Shown here: piece after piece, positions 1 through 3,000 of the stretch
How the letters are laid out: each line of letters begins with the position of its first letter
Numbering within the stretch: the stretch's first letter is position 1
Source of the DNA: Ruditapes philippinarum
Taxonomy: Eukaryota
Direction of reading: 5' to 3'
NCBI RefSeq assembly: GCF_026571515.1
Contig: NW_026851617.1
Location: forward strand, 1 to 64,000
DNA length: 64,000 nucleotides
Program-made: the position numbers

Positions 1-3000
1 TTGAATATGCTTTTCATATGATGCGAGTGGATGGTCTTTAATTACATTATCTCAATTTAATATAATCTTCTTATTTAAAAATTAGTAAAATTTACGGTAT
101 ATTGAAAAAAAGAAAAGGAGTGACATTCGCCATTTACCGCAACGTTCGGCGTAAGTTATCCCCCTTGATATGCTTGATTTTTGTTTTAAGTTTTCTAGTA
201 CTCTCTTTATGTCACTCAATACATTGAAAACTTTCACATTTCCTAGTAATGAATACCAGATGAGAACCAAAAATATTTATATATGGATCATGTTTTAATA
301 TTCCTTTTTTTTCAGTTAGGTGAAATCAGTTGGACCATATTACTAAAGTGTCTGTTTTCTCCATGTTAACACCATAGGAACTCTGGAACAGGACCGCATA
401 TTGCGGCGCATAAATCCGAATCCGTACCGGCTTTACATATTGTTTGTCCGACCTTTGAATATCTTTTCATATTATGCGAGCGGGTGGTCTTTAATTATCT
501 AATCTCAATTTAATGTAATTTGCTAATTTAAAAATCAGTCAAATTTACGGTATATTGAAAAAAGAAAAGGAGTGACATCCGCCATTTACCGCAACGTTCG
601 GCGTAAGTTATCCCCCTTGATATGCTTGATTTTTGTTTTAATTTTTCTAGTAATGAATACCAGATGAGTGCCTAAAATAATTATTTATGGATTCCTTTTT
701 TCAGTTAGGCCAAATCAGTTGGACCATATTACTAAAGTGTCTGTTTTCTCCATGTTAACAAATCGAAACACGAATACGCCCGTTATAATGCCGCCTATAT
801 ATGTCAACACATGTAAACAATAAACCATCCGGACAATACCTGATAGTTGACAAAAATAACGGGAACAAAATTCTGAAAAAATAGTAATCAATTGTAGCCA
901 AAGGGGAAAAACTCATGCCGAAAACGTTGCGGCGAATGGCAGATGTCACTCCTTGTCTTTTTTTATAATACCGTAAAATATGACCAGTTTTAAAAGAGAC
1001 AGATTTGGTTCAATTGATAATATATTTTTTGAGTCCGTACACTCGGAAAATACTAAAAGATATTTAGATGTAGCAGAAACGTTTTTAAAAACCGTTACAC
1101 GATCGAAAATAAACGCCGCAATCTGCGGTCCCGTTCTCGAGTTCCTATGGTTAACACATCAAAGCAAGAATACGCCCGTTATAATGCCGCCTATACATGT
1201 CAACACTTGTTAACAATAAACCGTGAAAGTTATATCCGGACGACTTCTGATAGTTGACAAAAATAACGGGAACAAAATTCTGAAAAAATAGTAATTAATT
1301 GTAGCCAAAGGGGAAAAACTCATGCCGAACGTTGCGGAAAATGGCGGATGTCACTCCCATAGGAACTCGAGAACGGGACCGCAGATTGCGGCGTATATTT
1401 TCGATCGTGTAACGGTTTTTAAAAACGTTTCTGCTACATCTAAATATCTTTTAGTATTTTCCGAGTGTACGGACTCAAAAAATATATTATCAAATGAACC
1501 CAATCTGTCTCTTTTAAAACTTGTCATATTTTACGGTATTATAAAAAAAAGACAAGGAGTGACATCCGCCATTCGCCGCAACGTTTTCGGCATGAGTTTT
1601 TCCCCTTTGGCTACAATTGATTACTATTTTTTCAGAATTTTGTTCCCGTTATTTTTGTCAACTATCAGGTATTGTCCGGATGGTTTATTGTTTACATGTG
1701 TTGACATATATAGGCGGCATTATAACGGGCGTATTCGTGTTTCGATTTGTTAACATGGAGAAAACAGACACTTTAGTAATATGGTCCAACTGATTTGGCC
1801 TAACTGAAAAAAGGAATCCATAAATAAATATTTTAGGCACTCATCTGGTATTCATTACTAGAAAAATTAAAACAAAAATCAAGCATATCAAGGGGGATAA
1901 CTTACGCGAACGTTGCGGTAAATGGCGGATGTCACTCCTTTTCTTTTTTCAATATACCGTAAATTTGACTGATTTTTAAATTAGCAAATTACATTAAATT
2001 GAGATTAGATAATTAAAGACCACCCGCTCGCATAATATGAAAAGATATTCAAAGGTCGGACAAACAATATGTAAAGCCGGTACGGATTCGGATTTATGCG
2101 CCGCAATATGCGGTCCTGTTCCAGAGTTTCTATGGTCACTCCTTGTCTTTTTTTATAATAGCGTAAAATTTGACCAGTGTTAAAAGAGACAGATTGGGTT
2201 CAATTGATCATATATTTTGAGGCCATATACTCGGATAATACTAAAAGATATTTAGATGTAGCAGAAACGCTTTTAAAAACCGTAACACGATCGAAAATAT
2301 GCGCCGCAATCTGCGGTCCCGTCCTCGAGTTCCTATGGACTTAACAGTTTTTAATTCCCTTTAGTTAAATCATATTTATTTCACTATTTCACATATGTTA
2401 CATTTTATATGTATATAAGTGTTACATAAAAATTCCCGTTAAGAATATGTTGATAGACCATAGTTATGAAAGTACACTGACATTTCTTTGTCAAGGCATG
2501 CGAACTTCCCCGATAATCACATATTTCTTCTTCATTTATTTCCAGCTGTGCTTGTTTTATTACCTGTCGGAATGTTCAGTGGGATAAAAGGAAAGGATAC
2601 CTTTGTACCGCTGTTCAGTGGAATGGTTTTTGCTGGGTTTGGCGGAGCATCGATGACCTTGATTGCTACATCAATGCTTCTCTGTTTTCCAGTTCTTCCC
2701 TGTAAATATTTCCAGTTTGATGATACCCTTATTCCTGTTTAAAGGGTTAAACAATGTCTTCACCAAGGAACAGCAATATCTACATTAACAATGTCTGTAA
2801 TACACTATGGACCTACACACACACACGGATGGAAGCTCAAGCAGTAGTATTAAAAGCTTATATGACTGATAGCTTTTTAGCTAATCTGGAAACATTTAAA
2901 ACAATTAGGGTATAAATCCAATGAAAATATTGTTTTAAAAATTGAAGGTGAAAACTGTCATAATCCTTCAAAAATTGCTAATCATTTTGAGCCTTTTTTA

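What the first reader, a model, noticed from the sequence alone, without database searches (positions are those of the whole stretch)
1..2338. Self-nesting transposon: two young copies inserted into an older copy of the same family, each with a clean 6-bp TSD
Seen: the apparent tangle of repeats resolves into one diverged host element interrupted by two near-identical 779-bp copies in opposite orientations. They are flanked by TTAACA (366-371/1151-1156) and TCACTC (1351-1356/2136-2141). Inference: two hits ~200 bp apart in a ~0.8-kb target of the same family suggest self-targeting (transposase tethered to its own sub-terminal sites) or local hopping. The result is a ~1.76-kb near-perfect inverted repeat that could form a cruciform or hairpin dsRNA.
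Basis: partly seen in the sequence, partly recalled or inferred. Interest (0 to 1): 0.7.

Follow-up and report, generated by a model that had tools for sequence, protein, structure and literature searches.

The report
Nested clam MITE copies, inverted pair
Two nearly identical copies of a small non-coding cut-and-paste transposon sit in opposite orientations inside an older copy of the same family in a clam genome; the structure is real but of a kind already known from other genomes.

Summary
Copies A (372-1150) and B (1357-2135) are each 779 bp, in opposite orientation, and identical in 771 of 780 aligned columns. Each is bounded by imperfect terminal inverted repeats and a direct repeat of host sequence. 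The three host pieces are collinear in family coordinates and uniformly about 93% identical to A by substitutions (654/704), so they are one older copy hit twice.

Two corrections:
- The duplication is not cleanly 6 bp. The in-register repeat is 8 bp at both insertions, so it is 6-8 bp.
- The "1.76-kb inverted repeat" is two 779-bp arms around a 206-bp spacer.

The element is non-coding and folds back on itself, so it is MITE-like. The genome is a venerid clam. MITEs make up 9.23% of the Manila clam genome, the nearest named species.

Same-family MITE self-insertion, and local hops that give inverted neighbours with their own duplications, are both documented. I favour a short-range re-insertion for the second copy. 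Self-targeting cannot be tested from one locus without the genome. Interest is low to moderate.

The parts
1..371 (+). Host copy, piece 1 (family coordinates 84-389). Its left end is cut by the window edge.
   Evidence: blastn. Separate alignment to A gives 285 matches, 21 mismatches and 65 gap columns, which is 93.1% substitution identity.
365..372 (.). Left copy of the target duplication of insertion A. The core is TTAACA (366-371); the in-register repeat is 8 bases, GTTAACAC.
   Evidence: Junction comparison in register.
372..1150 (+). Copy A, 779 bp, a non-coding TIR element in the same orientation as the host.
   Evidence: TIRs match in 33 of the first 37 bases. Arms 1-247 and 530-779 are 72.9% complementary. 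The DNA fold has z = -9.2. No Pfam hit in its frames.
544..603 (+). Conserved subterminal block in the left arm of A (contains GGAGTGAC).
   Evidence: Arm alignment A1. Inverted pairs I11 and I14 at 79-90%.
917..977 (-). Conserved subterminal block in the right arm of A, the inverted partner of 544-603.
   Evidence: Arm alignment A1. pair I11.
1150..1157 (.). Right copy of the target duplication of insertion A (core 1151-1156).
1151..1356 (+). Host copy, piece 2 (family coordinates 384-580). It is the 206-bp spacer between A and B.
   Evidence: 180 matches, 15 mismatches and 13 gap columns, which is 92.3%.
1350..1357 (.). Left copy of the target duplication of insertion B. The core is TCACTC (1351-1356); the in-register repeat is 8 bases, GTCACTCC. 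It lies at the edge of the host's conserved subterminal block.
1357..2135 (-). Copy B, 779 bp, inverted relative to A and to the host.
   Evidence: 771 of 780 columns identical to A. Inverted pairs I1-I3 at 98-100%.
2135..2142 (.). Right copy of the target duplication of insertion B (core 2136-2141).
2136..2338 (+). Host copy, piece 3 (family coordinates 575-779). It ends with the host's right TIR at 2338.
   Evidence: 189 matches, 14 mismatches and 2 gap columns, which is 93.1%. The end was read.

Best explanation
This is a non-autonomous class II (cut-and-paste, TIR) transposon of about 0.78 kb in a venerid clam genome. It is MITE-like, with long imperfect inverted arms.

Shown:
- An older copy, about 7% diverged, was hit twice by members of a much more homogeneous subgroup of the same family.
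- The first hit is near the middle of the host copy. The second is about 200 bp away, at the edge of the subterminal conserved block.
- The two hits are in opposite orientations.
- Each insertion duplicated 6-8 bp of host sequence at a G-N6-C site. That is the mark of a staggered cut made by a transposase supplied from elsewhere.

Inferred:
- The two young copies are linked events. One arrived first, and the other is a short-range re-insertion (local hop) from it. The donor was retained by repair or by the timing of replication.
- The resulting pair of 779-bp inverted arms with a 206-bp spacer would give a long hairpin RNA if transcribed through. That could feed small-RNA silencing of the family.
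For: Structure:
- TIRs, flanking duplications and collinear host pieces.
- Divergence is uniform along the host at 93.1%, 92.3% and 93.1%, so it is one old copy.
- A and B differ by 7 substitutions and 2 indels.

Non-autonomous:
- The longest ATG/GTG/TTG-initiated ORF within one copy is 77 aa.
- 0 Pfam families in the 3 frames of 75 aa or more that overlap the copies.
- No transposase domain in 61 of the 71 frames of 75 aa or more, nor in 130 of the 179 frames of 55-74 aa.

Foldback arms: DNA fold z = -9.2, with 0 of 20 shuffles folding as well.

Precedent for a local hop: in rice, 36% of transposed Ds elements landed near the donor. One landed 1.1 kb away in inverted orientation with its own 8-bp duplication (PMC3239180, passages).

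Hairpin: 772 of 779 bases of A pair with B in the RNA fold. Inverted transposon duplications that give hairpin RNA and silence their family are described for Mu killer (PMC3440606, abstract in the listing) and for Ac composite insertions (bioRxiv 10.1101/2020.01.07.897926, abstract).
Against: - This is one locus, and the genome is not available. Nothing here separates a local hop from two independent arrivals or from a family preference for its own sequence.
- The 7 substitutions between A and B polarise 4 to A and 2 to B, with 1 not covered by the host. That fits either a hop followed by mutation or two slightly different source copies.
- Retention of the donor after a cut-and-paste move is assumed, not shown.
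- No transcript or small-RNA data were available.
- The host's left end and its own duplication are off the window.
- The superfamily is unknown.
Confidence: 0.45

Rival explanations
1. Chance nesting. A and B are two unrelated insertions of an abundant, recently active family that happened to land in the same old copy in a MITE-rich genome.
For: - MITEs make up 9.23% and interspersed repeats 39.7% of the Manila clam genome, the nearest named species (PMC9803972, passages).
- The window also holds three copies of another hairpin MITE-like family.
- The finding was picked out by a reader looking for oddities, so selection inflates how rare it looks.
Against: - Two hits within about 200 bp in one 0.85-kb target need a very high copy number to be expected by chance.
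- No other copy of this family lies in the remaining 61.7 kb of the window, which does not suggest extreme density.
Confidence: 0.25
2. Self-targeting. The transposase, bound to subterminal sites of resident copies or drawn to a sequence or shape that the family itself carries, integrates preferentially into family members.
For: - Insertion B lies exactly at the outer edge of the best-conserved subterminal block (GGAGTGAC...) of the host arm.
- Insertion A lies at a GTTAAC palindrome close to the centre of the element (family coordinates 383-389 of 779).
- All three visible target sites fit G-N6-C.
Against: - There are only two events.
- The same GGAGTGAC block in the host's left arm (117-124), and both blocks in A and in B, are not hit.
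- No genome-wide test was possible.
Confidence: 0.15
3. A and B are not young. They are older insertions kept alike by gene conversion between closely spaced inverted arms, so their 98.8% identity dates the last conversion and not the insertions.
For: - The arms are 779 bp long and only 206 bp apart, a layout prone to intrachromosomal exchange. That inverted repeats interact is supported by PMC10164571 (passages). Conversion itself is my own knowledge.
- Only 2 of the 7 differences are transitions, an odd spectrum for simple ageing, though n is small.
Against: - The flanking duplications are still perfect at 8 of 8 bases on both sides of both copies. In host sequence that is 7% diverged from A, this argues for recent events.
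Confidence: 0.12
4. Assembly artefact: a fold-back chimeric read or a mis-joined repeat created the inverted pair.
For: - The structure lies at the very start of the window, and the host copy is cut by the window edge. If that edge is also a contig end, mis-assembly there is more likely.
- The contig that carries the window's TRIM-like gene is 125,194 bp in the protein collection. The window's offset within it is unknown.
Against: - The inverted arms stop exactly at the element's TIR ends and carry two different, perfect flanking duplications.
- The spacer and the outer flanks are not palindromic. They continue one collinear host copy.
- A fold-back chimera would mirror everything about a single centre.
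Confidence: 0.04

Closest known systems
Nested MITE multimers with same-family self-insertion in rice (Castaway, Gaijin; Jiang and Wessler 2001, as summarised in PMC5172404, passage read)
   Same: - Small non-coding TIR elements are inserted into other copies of their own family.
- The nests arose from independent insertion events.
   Different: - Those are plant families of other superfamilies.
- Here a single host copy was hit twice, giving an inverted pair.
- The frequency in this genome is unknown.
- The primary paper (PMC139471) is not held in the library.
Closely linked inverted Ds pair made by local transposition (rice OsRLG5-161; PMC3239180, passages)
   Same: - A second copy inserted close to the first in inverted orientation.
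- Each copy has its own target duplication.
- Such pairs are known substrates for aberrant transposition and rearrangement.
   Different: - Those copies are 1.1 kb apart in a gene, not about 200 bp apart inside an older family member.
- That case is an observed event with a known transposase. Here the history and the superfamily are inferred.
Maize double Ds, one Ds inserted into another in inverted orientation (recalled from my own knowledge; only the term DoubleDs in a reference title was seen)
   Same: Same-family nesting in inverted orientation.
   Different: - Double Ds is one copy inside an identical copy.
- Here two young copies lie inside a diverged old copy. Only B is inverted relative to the host.
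Mu killer and Ac composite insertions: inverted transposon duplications that make hairpin RNA and silence the family (PMC3440606, abstract in the listing; bioRxiv 10.1101/2020.01.07.897926, abstract)
   Same: Two inverted stretches of the same transposon close together could give a long double-stranded RNA on read-through transcription.
   Different: - Those arose by rearrangement or alternative transposition, include transposase-gene sequence, and are in plants.
- Transcription and small RNAs are shown there and are untested here.
P element target and terminus relations (PMC2577343, passages)
   Same: - Under the 8-bp reading, this element has an 8-bp duplication and CAT...ATG tips, as reported for P.
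- The target looks palindromic at its edges (G-N6-C).
- The paper describes the same difficulty of telling TIR tip from target.
   Different: - Three shared terminal bases and an ambiguous duplication length are only a lead.
- No transposase partner was seen.
- hAT elements also make 8-bp duplications.

Membership tests
Non-autonomous class II TIR transposon (MITE-like) | Terminal inverted repeats | tested here: met
   33 of the first 37 bases are complementary between the ends of A. The arms extend to about 250 nt at 72.9%.
Non-autonomous class II TIR transposon (MITE-like) | Target site duplication flanking each copy | tested here: met
   Perfect direct repeats of 6-8 bases at both junctions of A and of B.
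Non-autonomous class II TIR transposon (MITE-like) | No coding capacity | tested here: met
   The longest ATG/GTG/TTG-initiated ORF within one copy is 77 aa. 0 Pfam families in the 3 frames of 75 aa or more that overlap the copies. Nothing at Rfam gathering score, and one sub-threshold match in 1-2500 (E = 0.14).
Non-autonomous class II TIR transposon (MITE-like) | High copy number with homogeneous members | not testable with these tools
   Only three copies, all in 1-2338. No eukaryotic genome collection was available.
hAT superfamily | 8-bp target duplication | tested here: inconclusive
   The in-register repeat is 8 bases in 2 of 2 insertions, but its outer bases can equally be the element's C...G tips. 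The 8-bp duplication of Ac/Ds was seen.
hAT superfamily | Autonomous partner encoding a hAT transposase with matching TIRs | not testable with these tools
   No transposase domain in the window, and no genome to search.
P superfamily | 8-bp target duplication and CAT...ATG termini | tested here: inconclusive
   Met only under the 8-bp reading, in which the element spans 373-1149. The P features are taken from PMC2577343.
Superfamilies with 6-bp duplications (IS3EU; Dada with 6-7 bp; both recalled from my own knowledge) | 6-bp target duplication | tested here: inconclusive
   The TTAACA and TCACTC cores are compatible. The flanking G and C in 2 of 2 insertions, and at the host's right end, leave 6 against 8 open.
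Foldback (FB-type) elements | Long inverted arms built of tandem subrepeats (feature recalled from my own knowledge) | tested here: not met
   Tandem Repeats Finder lists no array in 1-2338 (0 of 23 rows). The arms are unique sequence.
Self-inserting MITE families | Same-family nested insertions more frequent than expected genome-wide | not testable with these tools
   This needs all genomic copies.

The most novel reading that the evidence does not exclude
The family homes to itself. Its transposase, held on the conserved subterminal block or drawn to the foldback shape of resident copies, integrates into or beside family members. This regularly builds inverted pairs whose hairpin transcripts seed small-RNA silencing of the family. 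It would be a built-in, self-limiting brake on a MITE burst in a bivalve.
Probability: 0.1. Interest if true: 0.6.

Novelty: new member of a known kind. Interest (0 to 1): 0.25.

Why it matters
As it stands, this is a tidy textbook example of nested transposition in a bivalve genome, and a caution that a duplication length read from one or two copies can be off by two bases.

It would matter more if a genome-wide census showed that this family lands in its own copies more often than chance allows. It would also matter more if the inverted pair proved to be a source of small RNAs. Such loci would then be natural starting points for silencing DNA transposons in molluscs, where the origin of that silencing is poorly known.

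Closely spaced inverted copies are also known substrates for rearrangement, so the locus could be structurally unstable or polymorphic in populations.

Tried and rejected
- **RNA gene inside the element:** Rfam at gathering score found nothing in 1-2338. In E-value mode on 1-2500 there was one sub-threshold lncRNA match (19.4 bits against a cutoff of 50, E = 0.14). ARAGORN found no tRNA. Rejected.
- **Coding element or nearby autonomous partner:** no transposase, reverse transcriptase, integrase or viral Pfam domain in 61 of the 71 frames of 75 aa or more. The 10 not scanned were 4 satellite frames and 6 frames antisense to host exons. None either in 130 of the 179 frames of 55-74 aa. The 49 dropped lay in satellite arrays or inside 1-2345.
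- **Composite transposition of A + spacer + B as one unit:** rejected, because the outer flanks (TTAACA and TCACTC) differ.
- **piggyBac-type TTAA targeting:** rejected. B's duplication has no TTAA.
- **Fold-back chimera:** rejected on the anatomy.
- **Repeated short subterminal motifs:** no strongly repeated hexamer. AACGTT occurs 3 times in A, which gives a strand-summed count of 6 against 0.48 expected from the rest of the window. This is too few to call binding-site arrays.
- **Text search of the paper library for the first 12 bases of the TIR:** 1 paper, an unrelated oligonucleotide.
- **Jiang and Wessler 2001 (PMC139471):** not held.
- **Genome-contig scan:** not used. The collection holds only bacteria and archaea, so it cannot bear on an animal MITE.

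Full report
**What is there**

I read 1-3000 and ran repeat finding, blastn of 372-1150 against the whole window, and explicit junction alignments.
- Copy A (372-1150) and copy B (1357-2135) are both 779 bp.
- B is the reverse complement of A, identical in 771 of 780 aligned columns (7 substitutions and 2 one-base indels).
- Each copy starts and ends with inverted termini. In A, 33 of the first 37 bases are complementary between the two ends.
- No other member of the family lies in 2339-64000.

**The host copy**

I aligned the three remaining pieces to A separately and never joined them.
- They cover family coordinates 84-389, 384-580 and 575-779. They are collinear and overlap only by the duplicated bases.
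- Substitution identity to A is 93.1%, 92.3% and 93.1%, or 654 of 704 overall. Gap columns number 65, 13 and 2.
- The even divergence shows that the pieces are one copy. That copy is necessarily older at this locus than A and B, and it is about eight times more diverged from A than A is from B.
- The host's left end is cut by the window edge, so its own flanking duplication cannot be checked.

**Two corrections to the observation**

*The duplication is not cleanly 6 bp.*
- Compared in register, the direct repeat is 8 bases at both insertions: GTTAACAC and GTCACTCC.
- The outer G and C can be read either as part of the duplication or as the element's tips. The second gives termini CCATAGG...CCTATGG.
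- The host's right flank (2338-2345) also fits G-N6-C.
- Under either reading, five or six flanking bases must be G or C by target preference or by coincidence, so this locus cannot decide between them.
- Linheiro and Bergman describe the same problem: TIR tips that complement a palindromic target motif blur the border between TIR and target (PMC2577343, passages).

*The "1.76-kb inverted repeat" is two 779-bp arms separated by a 206-bp non-palindromic spacer.*

**What the element is**

- It has no coding capacity. The longest ATG/GTG/TTG-initiated ORF within one copy is 77 aa.
- The three frames of 75 aa or more that overlap the copies have no Pfam match.
- Rfam and ARAGORN find no RNA gene in it.
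- Its two arms (1-247 and 530-779) are 72.9% complementary.
- As single-stranded DNA it folds far better than shuffles, with z = -9.2 and 0 of 20 shuffles as good.
- Two blocks are conserved between arms and between copies: the 37-bp termini, and a subterminal block about 175-240 nt from each end that contains GGAGTGAC.
- CpG observed/expected is 1.50 in A and 1.55 in B, against 0.98 in the rest of the window.
- Tandem Repeats Finder finds no array inside 1-2338, so it is not an FB-type foldback element.

It is therefore a non-autonomous TIR transposon of MITE type with long imperfect arms.

The superfamily stays open. An 8-bp duplication would point to hAT (8 bp for Ac/Ds) or to P (8 bp and CAT...ATG tips). 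A 6-bp duplication would point to rarer groups that I only recall (IS3EU, Dada). No transposase was seen.

**Context**

- The window has no N, about 32% G+C and many satellites.
- It has few long frames, and these are animal exons:
  - an intronless TRIM-like B-box/NHL gene at 17197-18927;
  - Cys-loop receptor exons at 25411-26178;
  - SYDE-like RhoGAP exons on the minus strand between 41049 and 47919.
- The exons of the spliced genes were scanned one by one. The joined step was left out.
- The TRIM-like protein's best named relatives are paralogues from Ruditapes philippinarum (up to 82% identity) and then Mercenaria mercenaria (about 58%). The window is therefore from a venerid clam and is not human.
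- I found no virus-like coding stretch. There were no reverse transcriptase, integrase, capsid or transposase domains in 61 of the 71 frames of 75 aa or more, nor in 130 of the 179 frames of 55-74 aa.
  - The 10 long frames not scanned were 4 satellite frames and 6 frames antisense to host exons.
  - The 49 short frames dropped lay in satellite arrays or inside 1-2345.

**How it most likely came about**

*Shown:* there were two separate insertion events. The two copies have different flanking duplications, and the outer flanks of the A-spacer-B unit do not match, which rules out movement as one composite.

*Inferred:* a transposase supplied from elsewhere made staggered cuts 6-8 bp apart at G-N6-C sites.

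The open question is why two near-identical copies lie about 200 bp apart inside one 0.85-kb family member. I rank the explanations as follows.
- **Local hop from the first-arrived copy, about 0.45.** In rice, 36% of transposed Ds elements landed near the donor. One landed 1.1 kb away in inverted orientation with its own 8-bp duplication (PMC3239180, passages).
- **Chance in a MITE-rich genome, about 0.25.** MITEs are 9.23% and interspersed repeats 39.7% of the Manila clam genome, the nearest named species (PMC9803972, passages). The window also holds three copies of another hairpin MITE-like family.
- **Self-targeting, about 0.15.** Insertion B sits at the edge of the conserved subterminal block, and insertion A sits at a GTTAAC palindrome near the element's centre. 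These are two events only, and the equivalent blocks in the host's left arm and in A and B are untouched.
- **Gene conversion between the arms.** This could make A and B look younger than they are. The still-perfect 8-of-8 duplications argue against great age.
- **Fold-back assembly artefact.** This is unlikely. The mirrored part stops exactly at the TIR ends, and the spacer and flanks continue one collinear host copy.

**What it might do**

- As RNA, 372-2135 folds so that 772 of 779 bases of A pair with B. Read-through transcription would therefore give a long hairpin.
- In maize, inverted duplications of transposon sequence do give such RNA and silence their family. The examples are Mu killer (PMC3440606, abstract in the listing) and Ac composite insertions (bioRxiv 10.1101/2020.01.07.897926, abstract).
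- Nothing here shows transcription.
- Cruciform extrusion in duplex DNA is disfavoured by the 206-bp spacer. In yeast, spacers of 100-200 bp lower inverted-repeat recombination and rearrangement 20- to 300-fold relative to 12 bp (PMC10164571, passages). Interaction in single-stranded DNA remains possible.

**Comparison with what is known, and novelty**

- Same-family self-insertion of MITEs is documented. In rice, more than 10% of 6,600 MITEs were multimers, and Castaway and Gaijin had high self-insertion frequencies. The nests arose from independent insertions (PMC5172404, passage). The primary paper was not held.
- Closely linked inverted pairs made by local transposition are also documented.
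- I recall the maize double Ds as a further same-family nest.
- My searches for this family found nothing:
  - The text search for the first 12 bases of the TIR gave 1 unrelated paper.
  - The search on Ruditapes philippinarum, transposable elements and MITE gave 8 papers. I judged them from the listing, and from passages of one of them. None describes this element.
- The published clam repeat library is in a supplement that I could not open.

This is a new member of a known kind.

**What stayed unchecked**

- The duplication logo.
- The autonomous partner.
- Long-read support.
- Small RNAs.

No eukaryotic genome or transposon library was available.

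Noticed in passing
window 9810-10046, 13245-13479, 58681-58917: Three copies of a separate hairpin MITE-like family of about 240 bp. The arms are 103-115 nt and 90-98% complementary, and the loops are 5-31 nt. All three start with near-identical GAGCCG... termini.
   Followed up: partly
window 5402-6283 and 14432-15002: Two arrays of the same 65-bp satellite (13.6 and 8.8 copies, 94-98% matches). They lie about 8 kb apart, and their consensus units are reverse complements of each other.
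   Followed up: no
window 3616-4519: A satellite with a 22-bp base unit organised in a 66/131-bp higher-order repeat (13.8 copies of 66 bp, 98% matches). It creates spurious long ORFs on the minus strand.
   Followed up: no
window 27057-27509 and 34332-34478: A 76-bp tandem repeat (6 copies) that recurs as 2 copies 7 kb downstream.
   Followed up: no
window 20581-20653 (-): A tRNA-like Rfam match at 30.9 bits, just above the gathering score of 29. ARAGORN calls no tRNA there. It may be a tRNA-derived SINE head or a decayed tRNA gene.
   Followed up: no
window 39923-41334 (+): A run of five consecutive open frames of 76-145 aa on the plus strand. They run from the intron downstream of the SYDE-like gene's last seen exon to overlap that exon (41049-41345, minus strand). 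No Pfam match even at E <= 1.
   Followed up: partly
window 17197-18927 (+), 25411-26178 (+), 41049-47919 (-): Host genes: an intronless TRIM-like B-box/NHL gene from a family much expanded in venerid clams, Cys-loop receptor exons, and SYDE-like C2 + RhoGAP exons. Exons were scanned one by one and not joined.
   Followed up: partly
My Pfam scans of open frames of 55 aa or more found no viral, retroelement or transposase domain anywhere, so I cannot point to one.
   Followed up: partly
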